A DNA stretch of 32,000 nucleotides from NCBI RefSeq assembly GCF_008189525.1, contig NZ_CP043314.1, positions 120,001 through 152,000 of the forward strand, written 5' to 3'. This document shows, piece by piece, positions 1 to 18,668 of this stretch. The translations under genes were made by a program, and so were the position numbers. How positions within the stretch are numbered: the stretch's first letter is position 1; every line of letters begins with the position of its first letter. The notes beneath the pieces were generated by a model. That model searched no databases. It was not told where the DNA came from and worked only from the letters and a program-made list of their open reading frames with translations. The stretch is from Candidatus Saccharimonadota bacterium (GTDB lineage: Bacteria > Pseudomonadota > Alphaproteobacteria > CAJXXZ01 > 1604HC).

Positions 1-1196
1 CCATCCATTATTTTTTCTACTTGACCAGATTCATGCCCTGTCCTTAGATCTTTGACCATTCTGTAAGGATGCATAACATAAGATCTGATTTGGCTACCCC
101 ATGAATTATCTTTTTTCTTCGCTGAATTTTCTGAAGCTTCTTTCTCAGCTTTTTCTTTTTCATGTGCATATAGTTTAGACTTTAGCATTTGCATTGCCTC
201 TGCTTTGTTTCTATGCTGTGATCTGTCGTTTTGACATTGCACTACTATTCCGCTTTCTATATGTGTTATACGAACTGCACTGTCAGTTTTGTTTACGTGC
301 TGCCCTCCTGCTCCAGATGCTCTGTAAGTATCTATTCTTATATCTTTATCTTCTATTTCTATGTTTATTTCTTGGTTTATAACTGGAGTTACCCATACAG
401 AAGCAAAGCTTGTATGTCTTCTGCTATTTGAGTCAAATGGAGATATCCTGACTAACCTATGTACCCCTGACTCTCCTTTCGTCCATCCATATGGAAAGGA
501 GTTTTCATTAGATGATACTTTTATTTCTGCAGATTTTACTCCAGCTTCTTCACCTTTTTGTTCATGCAGTATTTCTGCTTTGAAATTATTTTTTTCAAAA
601 AATCTCAGATACATTCTCATCAGCATTTCAGTCCAATCTTGTGCTTCTGTTCCTCCTGCTCCTGAGTTAAGAGAAACAAAACAATCTAACTTGTCTACCT
701 GTTCTGAAAATAGCAAATTTACATAAAAAGGCTTTAGCTGTTCTAAAAGTTCATTAGATTCTATTGCTGCATCTTCCATAAACTCAGGAATTTGTGTCAT
801 TTCTTTTATATTTATATACTGTTCTGAGAAATGTTTTATAGATCCTACCATTTCATTTGTCTGGCTATGTTCTTTTAATATTTGCTGTGCTTTTTCTTTA
901 TCATCCCATAAGTTTGGATTTTCCACTTCTTTGCTCAGTTCTAGTAATTTGTTTTCTAAATCTAGTTTTTTAAGATTATCTTGGAGTAAGTTGATATATT
1001 TTTCTATTTTACTAAAAATTGCATTAATGTTTTCTGAATGTACAGAATTGCTTGTATTATTCTTGCTTGTGTTGTTCTTGTTAGAATCATTGACATTCTT
1101 TTGATTGTCGCTAATATTCTTTGCTTTGTCAGAGTTTTTGTTATTGTTTTTTTTAATAGCTTTGTCATTTTCTAATTCATTATTAAGAATATTCAT
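1..1196 (-). CDS. prfB: Peptide chain release factor 2; 3' end runs off the window (398 codons visible); single uninterrupted frame
   Basis: Absent from the supplied ORF track because no stop lies inside the window. Hand translation of the minus strand from ATG 1196-1194 (in-frame TAG directly upstream at 1199-1197) gives RISPFDSNSRRHTSFASV (the SPF tripeptide diagnostic of RF2). It also gives YRASGAGGQHVNKTDSAVRITH..QCQNDRSQHRNK (GGQ motif) and SWGSQIRSYVMHPYRMVKDLRTG. I checked every in-frame triplet from 3 to 1196 and found no stop. Confidence 0.9.
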   Translation of the reverse strand, partial: MNILNNELENDKAIKKNNNKNSDKAKNISDNQKNVNDSNKNNTSKNNTSNSVHSENINAIFSKIEKYINLLQDNLKKLDLENKLLELSKEVENPNLWDDKEKAQQILKEHSQTNEMVGSIKHFSEQYINIKEMTQIPEFMEDAAIESNELLEQLKPFYVNLLFSEQVDKLDCFVSLNSGAGGTEAQDWTEMLMRMYLRFFEKNNFKAEILHEQKGEEAGVKSAEIKVSSNENSFPYGWTKGESGVHRLVRISPFDSNSRRHTSFASVWVTPVINQEINIEIEDKDIRIDTYRASGAGGQHVNKTDSAVRITHIESGIVVQCQNDRSQHRNKAEAMQMLKSKLYAHEKEKAEKEASENSAKKKDNSWGSQIRSYVMHPYRMVKDLRTGHESGQVEKIMD

Positions 1197-2492: not shown

Positions 2493-3173
2493 CTAGAATA
2501 AAGATTTTTTGTTGGATTCCAGTTGTTGTTTGAAGATCCTAGGTTTGAATATTAATTTTTGATACATGTCTTTGCTTAAATTAAATTCCTTAGCTTCTTC
2601 GGTTGACAATGGGACTATTTTCTTTGATTTTATAAAATTATATGAAGACTTCATTACAGGCCTAATAAATGTAACTATTTTTTTGGCATGACCATATTTT
2701 ATAGCTATTTCTTTGAACATTCTTTCTTTTACATAATCATTGCTAAATACAAATTGTAGTAAGAATAAATATGTGCTTGGAACTTTTTCTTTTTTACTAG
2801 GTTTTATTTTCTCAACAAAAGCAGAGTATCCAACAATGTTTCCATCTTTTATGACAGCTAAATGATTAATATTCTCTTGTTTACTAAAATCGAAAAAGGC
2901 AACACTTTTATCAAAGCTACTTGATAGAAATTCATATAAGTTTTGTAATCCAAATGAATCTTTGAAGTCTTCATATTTTAATAGATAGAATTTAATAAAC
3001 ATATCTTTTGTCGCTAAATAATGAAAATGTCCTTTTGGATTGAAAATGAACTTATATTCTTTTTCTGAAAAACCGGCTTGTTTCTTTAAACTATTAGTCG
3101 GCTTTGCTTTAATATCTGATAAAAATGATAAAAATAAAATGCTAACGAGCATAGTAAAATTCACAATAGACAA
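2493..3173 (-). CDS. Hypothetical protein with N-terminal hydrophobic signal/anchor segment; no recognisable domain
   Basis: 226-aa ORF and the only long ORF in this interval. The N-terminus MSIVNFTMLVSILFLSFLSDIKAKP looks like a signal peptide or signal anchor. The remainder is Lys/Phe-rich with no motif I can assign. Confidence 0.5.
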   Translation of the reverse strand: MSIVNFTMLVSILFLSFLSDIKAKPTNSLKKQAGFSEKEYKFIFNPKGHFHYLATKDMFIKFYLLKYEDFKDSFGLQNLYEFLSSSFDKSVAFFDFSKQENINHLAVIKDGNIVGYSAFVEKIKPSKKEKVPSTYLFLLQFVFSNDYVKERMFKEIAIKYGHAKKIVTFIRPVMKSSYNFIKSKKIVPLSTEEAKEFNLSKDMYQKLIFKPRIFKQQLESNKKSLF

Positions 3174-3460
3174 TATATACCTTTATTTTTCTTTATGCAA
3201 ATGTAAATCATGAATATAAGTTATAATCATTTTATTATATGTTAATAGCTTAATTAATATTATATTTTCTTAGTACTGTTTAAATGTTTATAAGTTGAAA
3301 TTTTATACTTACTTAAAAATGATTTGTATTTATTTAGAAAGTTAAGATTTATATGTGTTCATGTTTGTTTATAGGGTTTGATTTTTTTTGAATGCAATAA
3401 AACTAATTTTTTTTAGATTTTTGTTACTTAAATTGTTTTTATGAGAAAATGTGTTTAAAA

Positions 3461-3532
3461 AGCGGGCGAAGGGATTCGAACCCTCGACCCCAACCATGGC
3501 AAGGTTGTGCTCTACCACTGAGCTACGCCCGC
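3461..3532 (-). tRNA. tRNA-Gly (anticodon GCC), CCA not encoded
   Basis: The reverse complement reads GCGGGCGTAGCTCAGTGGTAGAGCACAACCTTGCCATGGTTGGGGTCGAGGGTTCGAATCCCTTCGCCCGCT. It has a 7-bp acceptor stem GCGGGCG/CGCCCGC, D-loop AGCTCAGTGGTAGAGC, anticodon stem CAACC/GGTTG with loop TTGCCAT, and T-arm GGTTCGAATCC. It is a local GC-rich island in AT-rich spacer. Confidence 0.95.
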
Positions 3533-3645
3533 TTGATAATTATTTGTACCATATAAAAATTATAATAGAAATATTCTAGATTGGGTTAGAATTTTGATGA
3601 ACTTGATGTTGTTTAATTAATATACAATATATATAATTTGTGTTA

Positions 3646-8016: not shown

Positions 8017-8379
8017 ATGTTTTTGAAAATCATTTATGGCTCTAATTCTATAATTTATGACAAAGTTTCTGTTGTTGGATTTGAAGATTCTGATGGTCTT
8101 AGATGTATATTTGATTTTGCTTCTGATTTCTGTTCCGTTATTAATTCTGGAAGTGTTTTTTTTATTTCAGCAGAATCTGACTTTTTAGTAAAAGTAGGCA
8201 TATCATCTATATCAAAAAAAGATGAAAAAATTACTATAGTTTCTGATTATGTGAACTTGCTTGAAAATAATAAAATCAGCGAAATAAAAAATCAATTAAT
8301 GGAAAGTTACAAAACAAACTGGGATAAAGAAAACTGGTTCAAAGAAAACAAAGAAAAAATAAATGCAATCTTGGGTTGA
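8017..8379 (+). CDS. atpC: F1 ATP synthase subunit epsilon (divergent)
   Basis: 120-aa ORF directly after atpD. Its size and beta-sandwich-like N-terminal pattern (V.VVGFEDSDGLRCIFDFASDFCSVINSGSVFF...KITIVSDYV) are consistent with epsilon. The assignment rests mainly on operon position. Confidence 0.7.
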   Translation: MFLKIIYGSNSIIYDKVSVVGFEDSDGLRCIFDFASDFCSVINSGSVFFISAESDFLVKVGISSISKKDEKITIVSDYVNLLENNKISEIKNQLMESYKTNWDKENWFKENKEKINAILG

Positions 8380-12220: not shown

Positions 12221-12240
12221 TTCGCACAATATGTTAATTT
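12221..12240 (+). promoter_or_regulatory. Conserved upstream box of paralog A (TTCGCACAATATGTTAATTT); promoter or operator candidate
   Basis: The core AATATGTTAA (12228-12237) recurs in the same orientation 52-61 nt upstream of the start codon of all three paralogs. It is followed by a TATAAT-like element (TATAATTGC at 12252). Confidence 0.35.
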
Positions 12241-12297
12241 TACACCAAGCCTATAATTGCCCAGCAATTTATGTATACTGAGTTTTTAAGAGGTAAA

Positions 12298-13722
12298 ATG
12301 AAGAAAATATTTTTATTAACTCAAATAATTGCGATGAATGTTTTTGCGATGTCAGGTGGAGAAGAGATAGGGTGCATGCCTTCTTCTCCTGTACAAGTTC
12401 CTGGTCAAGCTGTTGAACCTGCTGCTCCGAGTTCAGCAACACCAGTTAATGATGGTGAGGATTTGAAATTAGATTCTGGTCAAGCTGGGCAAATTTCTGA
12501 GCCTGTTGTATCAAGCACAGGCACTCAGACAGAATTAAATCTAGAGCCTGATCATGCTGAGCATCTTAAAAAAGTATTTCAGGGAGGCTTGGAAGGGCTT
12601 GGTACTCAGTTTTTTGTACAGCATAAGGAGGAAATACTAGGTTTTATAGATTCTTTAAAGTACAAATCAAAAGAAGAACAAGAAAGTGCAAAACAATCTT
12701 ATCAAAATATGAAAGAAATTCTCAAAACAAATCCTTATAGAGCTGGCCATGATTCTGATAGTTATGATTTTTACGTTGAAAAAGCAACTGTACTAATAAA
12801 GGAGTTATTTAAGGTAGAAGGTGGAGATTTGACTGATGCATCTGTTGGGAAGTTGTTAGATGTAAAAGATTATGAGCTTATGAAGGCATACATAGAAAAT
12901 GCAATGAATAAAAGTATTGGTGTAGAGTTTTTTGAGGGTGTAGATTTAAATAGTGATGTTTTTCGTGTGATGGAAGACAGTTTAAAGCATGAAAGAACAA
13001 AAATCATTGAAAGTATTTTTTCTCATTTTTGCGAATATGTGCTTGGATCTGAATTTGGGATAGGAAGAGTAAGGTCCTGTGCTATCGCAGTACAATCACG
13101 TATTCAAGATCTTTTGCAAGGAAGTATTTCTAATTATGAGAAAAAGATAGAATCAATAAAATCTAAAATTGCAAATCTAGAAAAAGAAAAAACAACATTA
13201 AAAACTGATAAAGCAGACCTAGAAACAAAAATAAGCTCTGCAAAAAAAAAGAGAGATTTGAATATAATAAATTTTTTTAATCCAAAATTAAAAGCTGTAA
13301 AAACAAAAATAAATAATCTCACAAACAAAATAGAAAAACTTCAGAAAGATTTAAATGGAATTCCATGTTTAAATATGGATAAATTTCATCCTCGTACATT
13401 TGATAACAGAGATGGAACTATTGCTCACTATCTTAAAATATTGAGGAAAAATATAAGAGTAGAGTATTTAGATAAAGCGCTTGTTATTGAAGATAATGGA
13501 GATATGAGCAGAGGGTATTTCCGTATTTTTTCTCATTTAGCAAACATGGCTAAGCATGGTATTAATCCATATGAGTACGCTCTTATGAGTGAAGCCTCAG
13601 AAATAGAAAAGCAGGGGCTTGAGATAGACAAGAAAAACACTGAAATGAGCGATTTGGAGTCAAGGTATTATAGGCTAGTTAAAAGATCTAGAAGGAAACA
13701 GGAATATAAAAATAGGCGTTAA
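12298..13722 (+). CDS. Paralog A of an unassigned signal-peptide/coiled-coil protein family (474 aa from ATG 12298)
   Basis: The track ORF is 12271..13722. I prefer ATG 12298 because AGAGGTAAAATGAA (Shine-Dalgarno plus start) is identical in all three paralogs. The signal peptide is MKKIFLLTQIIAMNVFA|MSGG, followed by a Pro/Ser/Ala-rich region. Conserved modules lie at 12991-13119 and 13507-13578, with a coiled coil between them. Confidence 0.85.
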   Translation: MKKIFLLTQIIAMNVFAMSGGEEIGCMPSSPVQVPGQAVEPAAPSSATPVNDGEDLKLDSGQAGQISEPVVSSTGTQTELNLEPDHAEHLKKVFQGGLEGLGTQFFVQHKEEILGFIDSLKYKSKEEQESAKQSYQNMKEILKTNPYRAGHDSDSYDFYVEKATVLIKELFKVEGGDLTDASVGKLLDVKDYELMKAYIENAMNKSIGVEFFEGVDLNSDVFRVMEDSLKHERTKIIESIFSHFCEYVLGSEFGIGRVRSCAIAVQSRIQDLLQGSISNYEKKIESIKSKIANLEKEKTTLKTDKADLETKISSAKKKRDLNIINFFNPKLKAVKTKINNLTNKIEKLQKDLNGIPCLNMDKFHPRTFDNRDGTIAHYLKILRKNIRVEYLDKALVIEDNGDMSRGYFRIFSHLANMAKHGINPYEYALMSEASEIEKQGLEIDKKNTEMSDLESRYYRLVKRSRRKQEYKNRR

Positions 13723-14041
13723 GAAGGCTAAGAAGAGAAAAGTGCTACAAACTCTAATAATTCTAAACCTAAGAAAAAAAATAAAGATGGCTGGAATACA
13801 GTTGGGAAAAGTGGAAAACAAAAGTTGCAAAAATAGGAAATAAAATCTTTTCTGGTTTTGTATAATATAACAATCTAAACCTCCCTTTTCCATCTTATAG
13901 CTTTTTCTGTATGCAATGCATTTAGTAATGAAATAAAAATCTTTCTTTCGTATAAAATTGAAAGTTTGCACAAAGCGTTAAGTAGCAAGGCAATTTCACT
14001 AAAAATCATTAAATTAAAGCAAGTCACTTACCATTAAAATG

Positions 14042-14059
14042 TTCATAATATGTTAATTT
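14042..14059 (+). promoter_or_regulatory. Conserved upstream box of paralog B (TTCATAATATGTTAATTT)
   Basis: Core AATATGTTAA at 14047-14056, 52 nt upstream of ATG 14108. It is followed by TGTGATTAC, which aligns with TGTAATTAC upstream of paralog C and TATAATTGC upstream of paralog A. Confidence 0.35.
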
Positions 14060-14107
14060 TTCTTTGTGATTACCTAAAAGTATTGTACAATAAACCTCAG
14101 AGGTAAA

Positions 14108-15916
14108 ATGAAAAAATTATTATTGTTAACTCAAATTATTACGTTAAATTCTTTTGCGATGTCTGGTGGAGATTCAGCAAGTGACTCGTCAAAAATGTCT
14201 TATACTCACCCAGCTCCATCTGCTATGTCAAGCAAACCTAAAGGGGAATCAGAATTAGTTCCTGAATTAGTTTTTCATCCAAAAGGTACAGAAGAGCATA
14301 AGGGTCTTGGATTATATGGTGAAGAAGTATTTAAGCTTGGTAAAGGGATTTTTAAATCTGAAGAACAAATGGAAGGGTTTCAGGCAAAAATACTTAAAAT
14401 CTTCTCAGATGAATTTGGTGATGAAGATGTAAAAAGTCATAAAAATGCTGTAAGTGATTTCGTTTATTCTTTAACAAATCCACCGAAAGAAAGCGGAAGC
14501 TTTGATTCATATGACTCTGATTTGCCTAGAGAAAAAGTGTTGGAAACAAACCCTTATAGATCTGCTTTAGGTAATCATAATTATGAATCTTATGTTAAAA
14601 AAGTGATTGATCTTATAGAAAATATATTTGAAAAAAAAATAAAACAAATAAAGGAACAAGGAGATTATAATGAAGATCAAGTTTTGGATCTTTTATTAAA
14701 AATACAAGATCATGAATTTATGAAAGAATATTATGATAAATATAAAGAATCTGAGAAACTGAAAGATATTAGAGGAAACAGCCCAGCATTTGCTAAAAAA
14801 GATGCAAAGCTTACTAGAGATAAGAATGATACAGAAAAGGAGCATGAGAAAAAAGCAAGAGAATATCCAGATATTGTAAAAAATGAAAGAACAAAAGTTC
14901 AAGAAAAGATTTTTTCTCACTTTTGCAATGAGATTCTTGGGTCTGAATTTTCAAAAGAAATGGCTAGATTGTGTGCGATAGCAGTACAATTGCGTATTCA
15001 AGATATTTTGCAATATGATATTTCTAAGTATAAAGAGTTTGTAAATAATTGTGATTTGTCGAAATACAATGAACAAAATGATGAGATAAAGAAATTAAAT
15101 GCAGAGTTAGATAAGTCAAATGCAGAGTTAGATAAATCAAATGCATATTTAAAAAAAATAAATGACCTATTAGCACTTAAGAGAGAGAAAAAATCTAATA
15201 AACCAAAAGACAATAACTTAACCGCAGAATTAGAAAAAGAATTAGGCAGAGAGACTAATATAAGGGATTTAATTGCAAAACAAACAGAAATAAAAGTAAC
15301 AATTACTCAGAATGAAGGTTGTATAGAATTATTAAAAGTTGATATAAAAGAAGCAAAACAAAGCTTAGCAAAACTTAATCCACTGTCTGGAGATGTTGCA
15401 GTAGCTTTTGATAGGAGAGCTGGAGAAATGAATGCATATCTTGATATTTTGGTGAAAAATCATAGCAAAAAAGATAAGCATGGCAATCTATTTATTGGAG
15501 ATAATGGTAATCTAAGCAGAGGATATTACCGTATTGTTTCACATTTATCAAATATGGCTAAACATGGAATTGATCCATATGAATATCCTTTAGAAGTTAA
15601 AGTTTCAGAATCGGAAAGTGAAATTACAGAAGAAAAATCTAAAAATCCAAGTCAGAGGACAGTGCGCAGGTCTCCTGGAAAAACTTCTGGAAAAAATCAG
15701 AAAAAAAGTTCTGGAAAAAAGACTGAAGATAAAGCGCAAACAAGACCGCGTTCAGGAAGTGAATTGCTAACCGGGTCACAGGCTAATCTAGAATCTAGGC
15801 AAAAAAGCAAGAATTCTGGTGAGCATGCTAAGGTAACTGGAACATCACCAAGGCCAAAAGTAGCTAAACCAGGAAGCAAGAAAGGTACTTCTCCAGATAA
15901 AAGCTCTAGAACCTGA
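14108..15916 (+). CDS. Paralog B of the same family (602 aa), with a long basic Ser/Pro/Lys/Gly-rich C-terminal tail
   Basis: Signal peptide MKKLLLLTQIITLNSFA|MSGG. Module 1 (14885-15013) is identical to paralog A at 29 of 43 residues. Module 2 (15515-15586) is identical to A at 20 of 24. The coiled-coil middle contains a 21-nt tandem repeat. Confidence 0.85.
   Translation: MKKLLLLTQIITLNSFAMSGGDSASDSSKMSYTHPAPSAMSSKPKGESELVPELVFHPKGTEEHKGLGLYGEEVFKLGKGIFKSEEQMEGFQAKILKIFSDEFGDEDVKSHKNAVSDFVYSLTNPPKESGSFDSYDSDLPREKVLETNPYRSALGNHNYESYVKKVIDLIENIFEKKIKQIKEQGDYNEDQVLDLLLKIQDHEFMKEYYDKYKESEKLKDIRGNSPAFAKKDAKLTRDKNDTEKEHEKKAREYPDIVKNERTKVQEKIFSHFCNEILGSEFSKEMARLCAIAVQLRIQDILQYDISKYKEFVNNCDLSKYNEQNDEIKKLNAELDKSNAELDKSNAYLKKINDLLALKREKKSNKPKDNNLTAELEKELGRETNIRDLIAKQTEIKVTITQNEGCIELLKVDIKEAKQSLAKLNPLSGDVAVAFDRRAGEMNAYLDILVKNHSKKDKHGNLFIGDNGNLSRGYYRIVSHLSNMAKHGIDPYEYPLEVKVSESESEITEEKSKNPSQRTVRRSPGKTSGKNQKKSSGKKTEDKAQTRPRSGSELLTGSQANLESRQKSKNSGEHAKVTGTSPRPKVAKPGSKKGTSPDKSSRT
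15098..15146 (+). repeat. In-frame 21-nt tandem repeat (2 full copies plus a partial third) inside paralog B
   Basis: AATGCAGAGTTAGATAAGTCA (15098-15118) is followed by AATGCAGAGTTAGATAAATCA (15119-15139), which differs at 1 nt, and then AATGCAT... This encodes NAELDKS NAELDKS NAYL. Confidence 0.85.
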
Positions 15917-16186
15917 GAGTCAATCTCTTGCAAAACTAGATCATAAATTATAAAACATTAAGTGAATCTATAAATCTTGATGGTAGAAAAAAGCTACCAA
16001 GTGAAAAATAAGGGGATTTTCCTTAATTTTAATAAATTCGTAATGTAAAAACAAAACAAATAAATTCTACGAAATCTAGAAATAAAATACTGAATATAAA
16101 TTAAGATGTAAATTTATTTTTTCAAAACCATAATTTCAAAGCTTTGAATAAAATTTTTAGCTTTAAATACATTTTTTTATATGTAA

Positions 16187-16204
16187 TTCACAATATGTTA
16201 AATT
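16187..16204 (+). promoter_or_regulatory. Conserved upstream box of paralog C (TTCACAATATGTTAAATT)
   Basis: Core AATATGTTAA at 16192-16201, 61 nt upstream of ATG 16262, the same distance as in paralog A. TGTAATTAC follows at 16217, and an extended -10-like TGTATAAT lies at 16237-16244. Confidence 0.35.
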
Positions 16205-16261
16205 CCAACCTTAATCTGTAATTACGCTTGGATATATGTATAATGGTGCTTTAGAGGTAAA

Positions 16262-18316
16262 ATGAATAAAATATTTTTATTAACTCAAATAATTGCATGG
16301 AATGTCTTTGCAATGGGGAATGATGACATAATTGAAATGCATAAAGATCCTGTTGCTGTGGTTTCAGTTGTGTATGCAGGAGCTGTAGCAGCTCAAAATA
16401 GTGAGTCCAGATTATTAAACCCAGTTAATCACGAAGAAGACATAGTGCCTGAGATTGTCGTTAATGCTAATGAAGATGTTGAGACAGGTTTTGTAATTCC
16501 AGCTAATACTAATGAAGATGAACATAGAGAACCATTTTCTAAAGAAGTTCAAGGTCTAGATCCCAAATTGCTAGAAGATAAAGATAGAGTTGATCGTATT
16601 AGAAAAGGTCTGATGGGTGTTTTGAATACAGAACTAGGCCAGTATGTAAATGAAAACTATATAAATGAAAACTACACTTGGGAAGTAGAAGACTTGATTG
16701 ATGCTTTGAAACGTTCATCAACATTAGGGAAGACTTATCCTTCAGTTTCTATTGAAGAGAGGGAAAAAGCACTAGGAAAAGGTTCTTATAGAGTGGGGTA
16801 TAATAATGAAGATTACAGTTTTTATATTCATAAGGTTGTTGAACTTGTAAATGAACTTTTCCCAGAATATGTTTTAACGGAAAATTGTATTTTGGTTGGA
16901 AGTAAGAGAGACTGGGAGAGCTCATTGCATGGTGTAGTTGTAAATGTGCTTGATATAGAAGGCAAAAATCCTCTCCTTAGTAATGAATATGATGAAAGCC
17001 AGGTTAGTATAAAGGAAACAAACACTCTTAGCAGTGAATATGTAGAGAATTTGTTATATCTTACAAGCCACATAAATGAATTATTAGAATTAGAAGAAAA
17101 AAAGAATGACAAAGACCCTAATAATATGAGAAAATTGTTAGACATAAAAATAGATACAGTGTATCTTTTGTCTGAAAAATTTATAAAAAAATCAGGAAAG
17201 CTAGTAGATAAATCTGTATACAAATTATTAAGTGTAAAAAATGATGAGTTTATGAGAAGATACATATCTAGAGCTAGGAAAACAGAAGAAGGTGAAGCTT
17301 TTTTTGAAGGAATAGAGCTATCATACAATAGTTTAAGTATAGGAGATGATTCTACTTATAAGACAAAAGTTCAAGAAAGAATTTTTACTCACTTTTGCGA
17401 AAATGTACTTGCTCAGAAACGAGAAGAATCTATGAAAAGATTTGTATTTGGGGAAGAAAGAGCGAGAGTATGTGCTATAGCTGCTCAATTACGTGTTCAT
17501 GATTTTATACAAAATCATGTTGGTGAATCGGAAAGTTTTATGGAAAACTCTATGAGTGAGCTTGATTTAGAAAAATATACTGAATTATCAAATAAGCTTG
17601 TAATGTTAGAAGATGAGTTATATGAACTTAAAGAAACAATAAAAGAACTAGAAATTGAGAAGACTAGTTTAGTATTAGCTCTAAAAGATAAAGGGTTACC
17701 AAAACAAGAAAAACAGAGGTTAGCAACAGAAAAGAATGCAAAACAAGATTTATTAAAAGAAAAGAATACAGAAAAAGAAGTTAAAATCTGTCTAATCAAT
17801 GAAAAAAAGGAGTTAATGAAAAATCTTTGCCCTCTAAAGGAAGGAGTTAATGACTCTTTCCAAGAAAGAGCTGGGCAATTGCATACATATCTGAATATAT
17901 TAGAGAAAAATCATAACATAAGAGATACAGAAGAAAATTTGTTTATTAAGGATAATGGCTTTTTAAGTAGAGGATATTTTCGTATTCTTTCATATTTAGG
18001 AAATATGGCTAAGCATGCGCTTGATCCTTATGAATATGAACTTAAAAAAGAAAATGATTCAGGCTCAACAATAAAAGGAACACTTCAAAAAATACTTAAG
18101 TTTGAAAAAAAACTTGGAAAAGTTTTTGAATCTCCAGTGCCAGGTACGGATTTACTTAAATTGCGTGATAAAAATGAAAATCCACGAAAAAAAATGAAAT
18201 ATTCTAGTGATATGGAGAAGCCAGAAGATCCACCACAGATTAACAGAACTGTAAATCCAAACAAGGACTTGAGCAACTCATTAAATGTTTTAAAGGAAAA
18301 TAAAAAAAGAACCTAA
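16262..18316 (+). CDS. Paralog C of the same family (684 aa), longest and most divergent copy
   Basis: Signal peptide MNKIFLLTQIIAWNVFA|MGND; the first 54 nt are 48/54 identical to paralog A. Module 1 lies at 17357-17512 (..FTHFCENVL...RVCAIAAQLRVHDFIQ). Module 2 lies at 17966-18037 (SRGYFRILSYLGNMAKHALDPYEY), 18 of 24 identical to A. It ends ..KKRT-stop, as paralog B ends ..SSRT-stop. Confidence 0.85.
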   Translation: MNKIFLLTQIIAWNVFAMGNDDIIEMHKDPVAVVSVVYAGAVAAQNSESRLLNPVNHEEDIVPEIVVNANEDVETGFVIPANTNEDEHREPFSKEVQGLDPKLLEDKDRVDRIRKGLMGVLNTELGQYVNENYINENYTWEVEDLIDALKRSSTLGKTYPSVSIEEREKALGKGSYRVGYNNEDYSFYIHKVVELVNELFPEYVLTENCILVGSKRDWESSLHGVVVNVLDIEGKNPLLSNEYDESQVSIKETNTLSSEYVENLLYLTSHINELLELEEKKNDKDPNNMRKLLDIKIDTVYLLSEKFIKKSGKLVDKSVYKLLSVKNDEFMRRYISRARKTEEGEAFFEGIELSYNSLSIGDDSTYKTKVQERIFTHFCENVLAQKREESMKRFVFGEERARVCAIAAQLRVHDFIQNHVGESESFMENSMSELDLEKYTELSNKLVMLEDELYELKETIKELEIEKTSLVLALKDKGLPKQEKQRLATEKNAKQDLLKEKNTEKEVKICLINEKKELMKNLCPLKEGVNDSFQERAGQLHTYLNILEKNHNIRDTEENLFIKDNGFLSRGYFRILSYLGNMAKHALDPYEYELKKENDSGSTIKGTLQKILKFEKKLGKVFESPVPGTDLLKLRDKNENPRKKMKYSSDMEKPEDPPQINRTVNPNKDLSNSLNVLKENKKRT

Positions 18317-18668
18317 AATATAGGTAATGTGTTTAATATATAAATTTAACAAAACAGATCTTTATATCTGTAATGTATATTTTCATATTTAGTAAAAAAT
18401 CTTGGAATTATAATTGTATAAATAACTAGAAAATAAAAGAACTGCATTAAAAAGTTCTGTTCACAATCTATGAATATGAATTTCCAGTAATTATTACTTA
18501 GAGTCAGGAAATTTTAAATCTGAATTTTGTCTACTATGCGAGGAATTGGTCTTACTAACTGTTTCTACTTATATTTTTGTTTTTAAGTTTTGTTAAGTAT
18601 ATAAAGTTAAGTATATAAAAACACATTAAAAATTCATTTTTATATAACGATTTAAAGATATGCTTAAA

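What the first reader, a model, noticed from the sequence alone, without database searches (positions are those of the whole stretch)
12221..18316. Tandem three-gene family of signal-peptide coiled-coil proteins with no recognisable homology
Three consecutive same-strand genes (12298-13722, 14108-15916, 16262-18316) interrupt an otherwise pure housekeeping neighbourhood and are clearly paralogous.

All three share one architecture:
- A near-identical Sec-type signal peptide: M(K/N)K(I/L)(F/L)LLTQII..N.FA|M.
- A variable, compositionally odd N-region. In A it is Pro/Ser/Ala-rich and locally GC-richer; in C it is acidic.
- A helical block: NPYR...Y.(F/S)Y..K...L...LF.
- A Cys/His-containing module.
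- A coiled coil whose length differs between copies.
- A second highly conserved module, SRGY(F/Y)RI.S.L.NMAKH..(D/N)PYEY.
- A basic tail of very different lengths.

I do not recognise either conserved module from any characterised family. In reduced host-associated genomes, tandemly amplified exported proteins are typically host-interaction factors (surface antigens, adhesins, effectors). That makes this the best candidate in the window for an undescribed system.
Basis: partly seen in the sequence, partly recalled or inferred. Interest (0 to 1): 0.75.

Follow-up and report, generated by a model that had tools for sequence, protein, structure and literature searches.

The report
Orphan exported coiled-coil gene trio
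Three neighbouring genes in a tiny endosymbiont genome (Candidatus Nesciobacter abundans, from the marine protist Diplonema japonicum) encode related, probably exported coiled-coil proteins that match nothing in any database searched; they are real and undescribed, but their role is only a guess.

Summary
Genes A (12298-13722), B (14108-15916) and C (16262-18316) are intact, same-strand paralogues (pairwise tblastn E 1e-36 to 1e-51). They sit between rpoD and dnaJ in a housekeeping neighbourhood of Ca. Nesciobacter abundans, a 616-kb Holosporaceae endosymbiont.

Each copy has:
- its own conserved upstream box, a -10-like site and an identical ribosome-binding site;
- a 17-residue Sec-type leader ending (V/S)-F-A|M;
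- an acidic disordered N-region;
- a helical core split in two by an antiparallel coiled-coil hairpin whose length differs between copies;
- a basic tail.

No relative was found in two very large protein collections, in genome and metagenome contigs, in Pfam, NCBIfam, PHROGs or PADLOC, or among PDB sequences. Two AlphaFold runs resolved only the hairpin, so the fold of the conserved modules is unknown.

In related genomes the rpoD-dnaJ slot holds one different orphan, two short orphans, or nothing. It is therefore a fast-turnover site in a very fast-evolving lineage.

Export across the inner membrane is well supported by sequence rules. A role at the host or mitochondrion interface is plausible but inferred. 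This is a new protein family of a familiar kind, of moderate interest.

The parts
12225..12240 (+). Conserved upstream box CACAATATGTTAATTT of gene A (possible extended -10 or regulator site)
   Evidence: 16-nt pattern found 3 times in the window, once before each gene, against 0.31 expected; alignment of the upstream regions
12274..12297 (+). -10-like TATACT and ribosome-binding site AGAGGTAAA of gene A
   Evidence: AGAGGTAAAATGAA is identical before all three genes, 3 matches against 0.08 expected
12298..13722 (+). Gene A, 474 aa (GenBank QEK38952, 'hypothetical protein')
12298..12348 (+). A leader MKKIFLLTQIIAMNVFA, predicted SPase I cut after VFA
   Evidence: n-region KK, 14-residue h-region, small residues at -3/-1, no lipobox; best-conserved DNA of the gene
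12349..12708 (+). A acidic, P/S/A/G/Q-rich N-region, low model confidence (probably disordered), GC 0.40
12709..13152 (+). A conserved helical core, first half (NPYR helix ... FSHFC ... CAIAVQSRIQD)
13153..13380 (+). A antiparallel coiled-coil hairpin (stalk), 76 aa
   Evidence: AlphaFold pLDDT about 90 in two runs; heptad scan
13381..13581 (+). A conserved core, second half (FDNRDG ... DNGDMSRGYFRIFSHLANMAKHGINPYEY)
13582..13719 (+). A basic tail, 46 aa, ends KRSRRKQEYKNRR
14044..14059 (+). Conserved upstream box of gene B
14108..15916 (+). Gene B, 602 aa (QEK38953): leader 14108-14158, N-region to 14527, core first half 14528-15046, stalk 15047-15388, core second half 15389-15589, S/K-rich basic tail 15590-15913
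15092..15145 (+). 21-nt x 2.6 in-frame tandem repeat in B's stalk; one unit is exactly one heptad (NAELDKS)
   Evidence: translation
16189..16204 (+). Conserved upstream box of gene C
16262..18316 (+). Gene C, 684 aa (QEK38954): leader 16262-16312, acidic N-region to 16759, core first half with a 114-aa insertion 16760-17545, stalk 17546-17839, core second half 17840-18040, basic tail 18041-18313
17710..17783 (+). 30-nt x 2.4 tandem repeat in C's stalk

Best explanation
A, B and C are three old tandem duplicates of a gene family found only in Ca. Nesciobacter abundans.

Shown or directly readable from the sequence:
- Each copy carries its own conserved 5' region: an upstream box, a -10-like site and an identical ribosome-binding site. 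They are therefore probably separate transcription units.
- Each starts with a 17-residue Sec-type leader with a signal-peptidase I site, (V/S)-F-A|M.
- The mature protein has an acidic, probably disordered N-region.
- It has an all-helical conserved core made of two halves.
- Between the halves lies an antiparallel coiled-coil hairpin that projects as a stalk. Stalk length differs between copies and changes partly by in-frame tandem duplication; in B the repeat unit is exactly one heptad.
- It ends in a basic, probably disordered tail of copy-specific length.

Inferred:
- The proteins are exported to the periplasm by the retained SecABDEFY machinery.
- They act at the symbiont surface or beyond it. 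They could be released through the residual GspD/PilQ secretin apparatus or in the outer-membrane vesicles reported for these symbionts.
- There they would serve as host-facing binding or tethering proteins, possibly towards the host mitochondrion, which these bacteria hug.
- The conserved core would supply the common function (assembly, anchoring, or an unknown Cys/His site). Stalk and tails would supply copy-specific reach and charge-based binding.
For: Real genes:
- Intact ORFs of 474-684 codons. At 30% GC about 8% of random codons are stops, so the chance of 474 stop-free codons is about 1e-17 (my arithmetic from the base composition).
- Native GC3 of 0.18-0.22 and codon-usage correlation of 0.86-0.90 with the neighbours.
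- dN/dS of 0.3-0.6 in the conserved blocks.
- 73 invariant columns.

Own expression signals.

Leader:
- Basic n-region, 14-residue h-region (too short for a membrane span), V/S at -3 and A at -1, Gly-rich start of the mature part, no lipobox Cys.
- These are the von Heijne -3/-1 rules, taken from established knowledge.

Export routes: N. abundans keeps secABDEFY, ffh, yidC and gspD/gspF/pilB/pilQ (George et al., bioRxiv 10.1101/719211, Table S3). Vesicles of 25-50 nm are reported for D. japonicum symbionts, together with close contact with the mitochondrion (PMC13462478).

Stalk.

Fast turnover typical of interface proteins:
- No relative anywhere.
- The same rpoD-dnaJ slot holds an unrelated leader-bearing coiled-coil orphan with a basic RG-rich tail in L001, two short leader-bearing orphans in L003, and nothing in L002. 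The RpoD proteins of L001 and L003 are 76% identical.

Cost: the block takes 6.1 kb, about 1% of a 616-kb genome reported to have only 8 pseudogenes.
Against: - No transcript, protein or localisation data exist in the papers searched.
- No dedicated signal-peptide predictor could be run, and the h-region contains T, Q and N.
- Nothing shows passage across the outer membrane. The T2SS/T4P set is fragmentary, so the proteins may stay in the periplasm.
- The fold of the conserved modules is unknown (pLDDT below 50), so no binding or catalytic function can be assigned.
- Fast evolution is a property of the whole lineage (DnaJ 38-46% identical to relatives), so orphan status alone does not mark a host-interaction gene.
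- dS is near saturation, so the dN/dS values are rough.
Confidence: 0.45

Rival explanations
1. Envelope housekeeping. The proteins are exported but stay in the periplasm or on the inner face of the outer membrane. They would serve the bacterium's own envelope, for example as spacers or tethers whose coiled-coil length sets a distance, as Lpp does (from established knowledge), with the basic tail binding peptidoglycan or lipid.
For: - Sec leader without any recognised outer-membrane secretion signal.
- The T2SS/T4P set is reduced to four genes and the Tol-Pal genes are largely missing, so novel envelope supports are conceivable.
- The stalk length is a discrete variable.
- There is a weak sub-threshold match to alanine-zipper lipoprotein models, but it is only coiled-coil noise.
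Against: - No lipobox and no known peptidoglycan-binding domain.
- Housekeeping envelope proteins are normally conserved between sister genera. Here the related genomes have unrelated genes or none in the same slot, and no homologue in any database searched.
- Three divergent copies are unusual for a structural spacer in a minimal genome.
Confidence: 0.25
2. Uncleaved anchor. The hydrophobic N-terminus is not removed, and it holds the proteins in the inner membrane with the body in the periplasm.
For: The h-region is only moderately hydrophobic and carries T, Q and N. Cleavage has not been tested.
Against: - The hydrophobic stretch is only 14 residues, shorter than a usual membrane span.
- It is followed by a canonical (V/S)-F-A site and a Gly-Gly turn in A and B.
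- The same 'FAM' or 'YAM' ending recurs on unrelated leader-bearing ORFs in L003, as expected for a processing site.
Confidence: 0.1
3. Very diverged orthologues (a rival about origin, not function, and compatible with the best explanation). The trio descends from one ancestral rpoD-dnaJ slot gene that is also present in Cytomitobacter (the 594-aa protein of L001). It has diverged beyond detection and is not a Nesciobacter invention.
For: - Same position and strand.
- Same gross plan: leader, low-complexity region, coiled coil, basic tail.
- Housekeeping proteins are themselves only 38-66% identical across these genera.
Against: - Profile comparison gives 0.5% probability of homology; tblastn finds nothing.
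- L003, whose RpoD is 76% identical to that of L001, already has different content in the slot.
- L002 has an empty slot.
- The L001 protein is itself a singleton.
Confidence: 0.3
4. Non-functional remnants. The ORFs are decaying or never-expressed duplicates.
For: Large spacers of 345-438 nt in a compact genome, and no expression data.
Against: - Long intact ORFs in an AT-rich genome.
- Codon-position GC pattern and codon usage like the neighbours.
- Conserved ribosome-binding site, leader and core blocks despite near-saturated synonymous change.
- No degraded fourth copy in the spacers.
Confidence: 0.05

Closest known systems
Periplasmic proteins of Holospora obtusa (63-kDa PRP1, 89-kDa invasion-tip protein)
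   Same: Same bacterial family (Holosporaceae). These are lineage-specific 'novel sequence' proteins with a putative signal peptide. They are stored in the periplasm and then exposed or released to the host (PMC9866348).
   Different: No sequence relationship was detected by the exhaustive profile search. PRP1 carries a D5_N DNA-binding domain, which is absent here. Holospora has an infectious form with a giant periplasm, and Nesciobacter is not known to have one. Release of A, B or C to the host is untested.
Coiled-coil-rich effectors of intracellular bacteria (e.g. Legionella LegC3, Chlamydia inclusion-membrane and CT392-type proteins)
   Same: Orphan, helical or coiled-coil proteins of obligate or facultative intracellular bacteria, often in paralogous sets and thought to bind host structures (from established knowledge).
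   Different: Those are delivered by type III or IV systems and lack Sec leaders. The matches found here are noise: LegC3 Foldseek E 1.9 on a low-confidence model, and CT392 and InaC NCBIfam scores of 11-14 bits against cut-offs of 160-200.
Variable surface protein families with a conserved 5' region and leader (e.g. Mycoplasma Vlp/Vsp, Borrelia paralogous lipoproteins)
   Same: Tandem paralogues in a reduced genome. The promoter, ribosome-binding site and leader are the best-conserved DNA, while the mature part diverges and changes length through in-frame repeats. The comparison with these families is from my own knowledge.
   Different: There is no lipobox cysteine, so A, B and C are not lipoproteins. 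No homopolymer or phase-variation tract was seen. The copies are old (37-39% identity) and keep two strongly conserved internal modules rather than being mostly repeats.
ClyA/MakA-type alpha-helical toxins and SMC-like coiled-coil hairpins
   Same: A long antiparallel helical hairpin projecting from a helical body.
   Different: Scores are far below the family cut-offs: MakB 12.4 bits against 240, and SMC-type models 15-27 bits against 300-730. There is no hydrophobic beta-tongue and no ATPase head.

Membership tests
Sec / signal peptidase I substrates | Positively charged n-region followed by a 7-15 residue hydrophobic h-region | tested here: met
   MKK or MNK, then 14 residues IFLLTQIIAMNVFA. 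This is the top hydropathy window of A and B.
Sec / signal peptidase I substrates | Small uncharged residues at -3 and -1 of the cleavage site, and no proline at +1 | tested here: met
   V-F-A|M in A and C, S-F-A|M in B. The rule itself comes from established knowledge.
Sec / signal peptidase I substrates | Call by a trained predictor (SignalP, Phobius), or demonstrated cleavage and export | not testable with these tools
   No such predictor is available here. George et al. counted 44 signal-peptide proteins in N. abundans but the held files give no list.
Bacterial lipoproteins (signal peptidase II substrates) | Lipobox [LVI][ASTVI][GAS]C at the end of the leader | tested here: not met
   No Cys within or just after the leader in B or C. 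A's Cys26 sits in E-I-G-C, which is not a lipobox and is not conserved.
Antiparallel coiled-coil hairpin | Two long helices with heptad pattern, joined by a short turn | tested here: met
   Helices 258-317 and 321-353 of A, with pLDDT about 90 over residues 287-352 in two runs. Heptad-like segments occur in all three proteins.
Any curated protein family (Pfam, NCBIfam, PHROGs, PADLOC) | Score at or above the family's curated threshold | tested here: not met
   Only sub-threshold coiled-coil matches. The core-only sequences give nothing even at E up to 10.
Holospora PRP1-type periplasmic DNA-binding protein | D5_N DNA-binding domain, or sequence similarity to PRP1 | tested here: not met
   No D5_N hit and no hit outside the species in the 1.84-billion-representative search.
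ClyA/MakB alpha-pore-forming toxins | Family profile score; hydrophobic beta-tongue | tested here: not met
   MakB 12.4 bits against a cut-off of 240. Outside the leader no hydrophobic segment stands out in A or B; C has one more at residues 26-45, in its N-region.
T6SS effector / immunity modules of diplonemid symbionts | Adjacency to vgrG/PAAR/tss genes or to the YwqK immunity gene | tested here: not met
   All neighbours within the 32-kb window are housekeeping genes.

The most novel reading that the evidence does not exclude
The two conserved modules form a fold not yet seen. The trio would then be a Nesciobacter-specific secreted apparatus that tethers the symbiont to, or manipulates, the host mitochondrion.

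Beyond that, the rpoD-dnaJ slot of diplonemid Holosporaceae may be a birthplace where a conserved promoter-plus-leader 'export cassette' (leader ending FAM or YAM, also seen on unrelated ORFs in L003) repeatedly gives rise to new exported proteins.
Probability: 0.12. Interest if true: 0.7.

Novelty: new variant of a known kind. Interest (0 to 1): 0.4.

Why it matters
Diplonemids are among the most abundant marine heterotrophic protists. Their Holosporaceae symbionts live pressed against, or inside folds of, the host mitochondrion, yet no molecule mediating that contact is known.

A genome of 616 kb spends about 1% of its length on three intact, independently signalled, probably exported paralogues. 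That makes them among the most concrete candidates for such molecules, and they are easy to test with antibodies, RNA-seq or PhoA fusions.

If the conserved core proves to be a new fold, it would add a family to the catalogue of symbiont surface or effector proteins. If the rpoD-dnaJ slot really spawns new exported genes, it would be a tidy case of gene birth in a shrinking genome.

If instead the proteins are periplasmic supports, the finding matters only to specialists in this lineage.

Tried and rejected
- Word-indexed search of 5.8 billion proteins with the family alignment: only A and C themselves.
- Exhaustive HMMER search of 1.84 billion representatives with a core-only profile (coiled coil removed): only A and C.
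  - B is absent from both lists. Its 90% cluster is represented by an unrelated 56-aa metagenome fragment, which looks like a clustering artefact and probably explains the absence.
- Scans of GTDB genome contigs and JGI metagenome contigs: no relative. The Nesciobacter genome itself is evidently not in the GTDB set.
- Pfam, NCBIfam, PHROGs, PADLOC and PDB sequence searches: nothing above noise.
- AlphaFold2 on the full alignment and on the trimmed core: mean pLDDT 45.7 and 51.5, with only the hairpin confident. A Foldseek search of the PDB gave no match at E <= 0.001, only generic long-helix proteins, so it is not used as evidence.
- Test of whether the Cytomitobacter-like occupants of the same slot are hidden homologues: hhalign probabilities of 0.2-3%, with only the leader of an unrelated 816-aa protein aligning.
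- Search with the 594-aa L001 protein, to build a profile for profile-profile comparison: it is a singleton.
- Fourth degraded copy in the spacers (suggested by a 22-nt repeat at 18375-18396): rejected, with no protein- or DNA-level support.
- Flanking repeats or signs of a mobile element or recent horizontal transfer: none; composition and codon usage are native.
- Rfam, tRNA and terminator scans of the spacers: nothing.
- Literature: no paper in the library mentions these accessions.

Full report
**Source and setting**

The three proteins are exact matches to GenBank QEK38952, QEK38953 and QEK38954. All are annotated 'hypothetical protein' of Candidatus Nesciobacter abundans, on a 616,088-bp contig.

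This bacterium is a Holosporaceae endosymbiont of the marine diplonemid Diplonema japonicum (George et al., bioRxiv 10.1101/719211). A recent review renames it 'Ca. Ignotibacter abundans' (PMC11909080).

The window has about 30% GC. Around the finding the genes are all housekeeping:
- upstream on the + strand: atpH, atpA, atpG, atpD, a small ORF in the atpC position, dnaG and rpoD;
- downstream: dnaJ, dnaK and grpE on the - strand, then ybeY, murE, ftsI, rsmH, mraZ and an H+-pyrophosphatase.

**Checking the observation**

Paralogy is beyond doubt:
- pairwise tblastn E-values are 1e-36 to 1e-51;
- full-length identity is 37-39%, with 73 invariant columns;
- mean column identity is 62% once the variable parts are cut out.

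Every quoted motif is present. The only deviation is that 'NPYR' reads GSYR in C.

Composition of the regions:
- A's N-region is GC-richer (0.40).
- All three N-regions are acidic (pI 4.4-4.8).
- All three tails are basic (pI 9.7-10.4; 46, 108 and 91 aa).

The 12298 start for A is favoured over 12271. All three copies have AGAGGTAAA immediately before the ATG (3 matches against 0.08 expected).

The duplicated unit includes a regulatory region:
- A 16-nt box, CAYAATATGTTAAWTT, lies 64-73 nt before each ATG. It occurs nowhere else in the window (3 matches against 0.31 expected).
- It is followed by a -35-like and a -10-like element (TATACT, TACAAT, TATAAT) and then the ribosome-binding site.

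At the DNA level, conservation is uneven:

| Segment | Pairwise identity |
|---|---|
| Leader | 76-89% |
| 80 nt upstream of the ATG | 66-68% |
| Next 300 nt of coding sequence | 45-49% |

The spacers are 345-438 nt. They contain no Rfam family, no tRNA, no predicted + strand terminator and no degraded fourth copy.

AlphaFold2 could not fold the conserved modules from a three-sequence alignment (mean pLDDT 45.7 and 51.5). Both runs nevertheless gave a confident antiparallel helical hairpin (A residues about 287-352, pLDDT about 90) and an otherwise all-helical secondary structure.

- The helix that begins at the invariant C-A-I-A-x-Q-x-R-x-x-D motif runs straight out into the hairpin.
- The return helix leads into the second conserved block.
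- The simplest picture is a helical body made of the two conserved halves, with a stalk of 76, 114 or 98 residues between them.

The stalk changes length at least partly by in-frame tandem duplication. B has a 21-nt repeat (x2.6) that encodes exactly one heptad, NAELDKS. C has a 30-nt repeat (x2.4).

**Are they real, native genes?**

- At this base composition about 8% of random codons are stops, so ORFs of this length cannot be accidental.
- GC1>GC2>GC3, GC3 of 0.18-0.22 and a codon-usage correlation of 0.86-0.90 with the pooled neighbours all lie inside the range of the housekeeping genes.
- Conserved blocks give dN/dS of about 0.3-0.6 with dS close to saturation. The duplications are therefore old and all copies have been kept.
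- Minus-strand ORFs inside the genes are short, low-complexity mirror images with no family match.
- There are no flanking repeats and no compositional sign of a mobile element or recent transfer.

**Search for relatives**

None was found outside this species.

| Search | Result |
|---|---|
| Family alignment against 5.8 billion proteins | A and C only |
| Exhaustive HMMER, core-only profile, 1.84 billion representatives | A and C only |
| GTDB genome contigs | nothing |
| JGI metagenome contigs | nothing |
| Pfam, NCBIfam, PHROGs, PADLOC | only sub-threshold coiled-coil noise |
| PDB sequences | nothing |
| Foldseek, low-confidence model against the PDB | no match at E <= 0.001 |

B is missing from the two protein hit lists. 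Its cluster is represented by an unrelated 56-aa fragment, which probably explains this.

No paper in the library mentions the accessions.

**The same genomic slot in relatives**

I fetched the rpoD loci of the nearest relatives. Gene order from comEC to ybeY is conserved in all three. The space between rpoD and dnaJ differs.

| Locus | Genome | Content of the rpoD-dnaJ slot |
|---|---|---|
| L001 | 621,866 bp, Cytomitobacter-like | One 594-aa protein without Pfam hits: signal-like N-terminus, N/K/Q-rich coiled coils, basic RG-rich tail |
| L003 | 619,361 bp | Two short ORFs (170 and 124 aa), both with signal-like N-termini |
| L002 | 558-kb MAG, CP060235.1 | Nothing; 347 nt of spacer |

- None of these occupants is detectably related to A, B or C, or to each other.
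- The L001 protein is itself a singleton in 5.8 billion proteins.
- RpoD is 76% identical between L001 and L003 and about 53% identical between either one and Nesciobacter. DnaJ is only 38-46% identical to Nesciobacter's.

Two conclusions follow. The slot turns over quickly, and always with leader-bearing orphans. The lineage as a whole also evolves so fast that a non-essential protein could lose all recognisable similarity between genera. Orphan status is therefore partly a product of rate and sparse sampling.

**Mechanism**

*Export across the inner membrane* is the best-supported step:
- a basic n-region, then a 14-residue hydrophobic stretch too short for a membrane span;
- V or S at -3 and A at -1;
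- a Gly-rich beginning of the mature chain, and no lipobox.

The genome keeps secABDEFY, ffh, yidC and yajC. No trained predictor could be run.

*What happens next* is inference. N. abundans retains gspD, gspF, pilB and pilQ. Vesicles of 25-50 nm are reported for the D. japonicum symbionts, which lie against or are enclosed by the host mitochondrion (PMC13462478).

*Features that fit a role at the symbiont surface or in the host:*
- three divergent copies with conserved expression and export signals;
- variable stalks, acidic N-regions and basic tails (KRSRRK in A, PRKKMK in C, S/T-P-x-K motifs in B);
- a fast-turnover slot.

A possible role is tethering or binding to mitochondria, membranes or nucleic acids.

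I put the combined model (real, exported, host-facing) at 0.45. A purely periplasmic or envelope role gets 0.25, an uncleaved membrane anchor 0.10 and non-functional remnants 0.05.

The two invariant cysteines (C245 and C261 of A, on either side of a helix-loop-helix) and the invariant histidines (H243, H420) could form a disulphide, a metal site or a catalytic pair. None of these can be tested here.

**Comparison with known systems**

- The nearest functional analogy is the set of periplasmic proteins of Holospora obtusa, in the same bacterial family. They are novel sequences with signal peptides that are exposed or released to the host (PMC9866348). There is no sequence link, and PRP1's D5_N domain is absent.
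- Coiled-coil effectors of Legionella and Chlamydia share the general look but use other secretion signals. Their matches here are noise.
- The pattern of conserved 5' region and leader with a divergent, repeat-resized mature part recalls the variable surface lipoprotein families of Mycoplasma and Borrelia (my own knowledge). These proteins, however, have no lipobox and keep two strongly conserved internal modules.
- ClyA/MakB and SMC models score far below threshold.
- The trio is not next to any T6SS gene.

**Verdict**

The family is undescribed but already sits in GenBank as hypothetical proteins. George et al. noted generically that many hypothetical proteins of these symbionts are putatively secreted.

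It is a new protein family of a familiar kind: lineage-specific, tandemly duplicated, exported coiled-coil proteins of an obligate intracellular bacterium. It is not a new kind of system.

Interest is moderate at 0.4. It offers a concrete, testable candidate for symbiont-host or symbiont-mitochondrion contact in an ecologically important but little-studied symbiosis. No mechanism can be established from sequence.

Noticed in passing
L001 11661-13445; L003 11780-12292 and 12749-13123; L002 11666-12012: The rpoD-dnaJ slot is a variable spot in related reduced genomes. It holds one 594-aa orphan (leader, coiled coil, RG-rich basic tail), two short leader-bearing orphans, or nothing. None resembles another, although the RpoD proteins of L001 and L003 are 76% identical.
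   Followed up: yes
L003 18323-20773 (- strand): An 816-aa coiled-coil protein with no Pfam hit begins MNYQYKLLTALVSMQLFAMDG, which resembles the A/B/C leader (LLT...M..FAM.G). Only the leader aligns (hhalign E 0.013). The 124-aa ORF in L003's slot also ends its leader in AYAM. This may be a shared leader or cleavage-site style in these symbionts, or chance.
   Followed up: partly
window 14108-15916 (protein B): In the large protein collection, B's 90% cluster is represented by an unrelated 56-aa metagenome fragment (P0005). This looks like a clustering artefact and probably explains why B is missing from the homology hit lists.
   Followed up: yes
window 8017-8379 (+): A 120-aa ORF lies between atpD and dnaG, in the position of ATP synthase epsilon. 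It has no Pfam hit, and the equivalent 119-125-aa ORFs in L001-L003 have none either. It is probably a very diverged atpC.
   Followed up: no
window 2493-3173 (-) and 361-726 (+): Two further ORFs (226 aa and 121 aa) have no Pfam match. They lie near tRNA-Gly (3460-3533) and a thioredoxin-reductase-like gene.
   Followed up: no
window 12271-12297: A second public annotation calls gene A nine codons longer (483 aa, start 12271). The conserved ribosome-binding site favours 12298.
   Followed up: yes
window 15590-15913 (B tail): B's tail carries S/T-P-x-K/R-type motifs (SPGK, SPDK, and the looser SPRPK). These are the pattern of eukaryotic CDK sites and of SPKK DNA-binding motifs. About 0.35 would be expected by chance, so this is only suggestive.
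   Followed up: no
L001 18723-21209 (+): An 828-aa protein with no Pfam hit follows ybeY. It has a signal-like N-terminus and an SHTDKDH stretch that recalls the metallo-beta-lactamase HxHxDH motif. It is unrelated to the finding.
   Followed up: no
whole window: A review (PMC11909080) lists the organism under the new name 'Candidatus Ignotibacter abundans' and gives Diplonema aggregans as its host. The genome papers give D. japonicum. This is a discrepancy in the literature.
   Followed up: no
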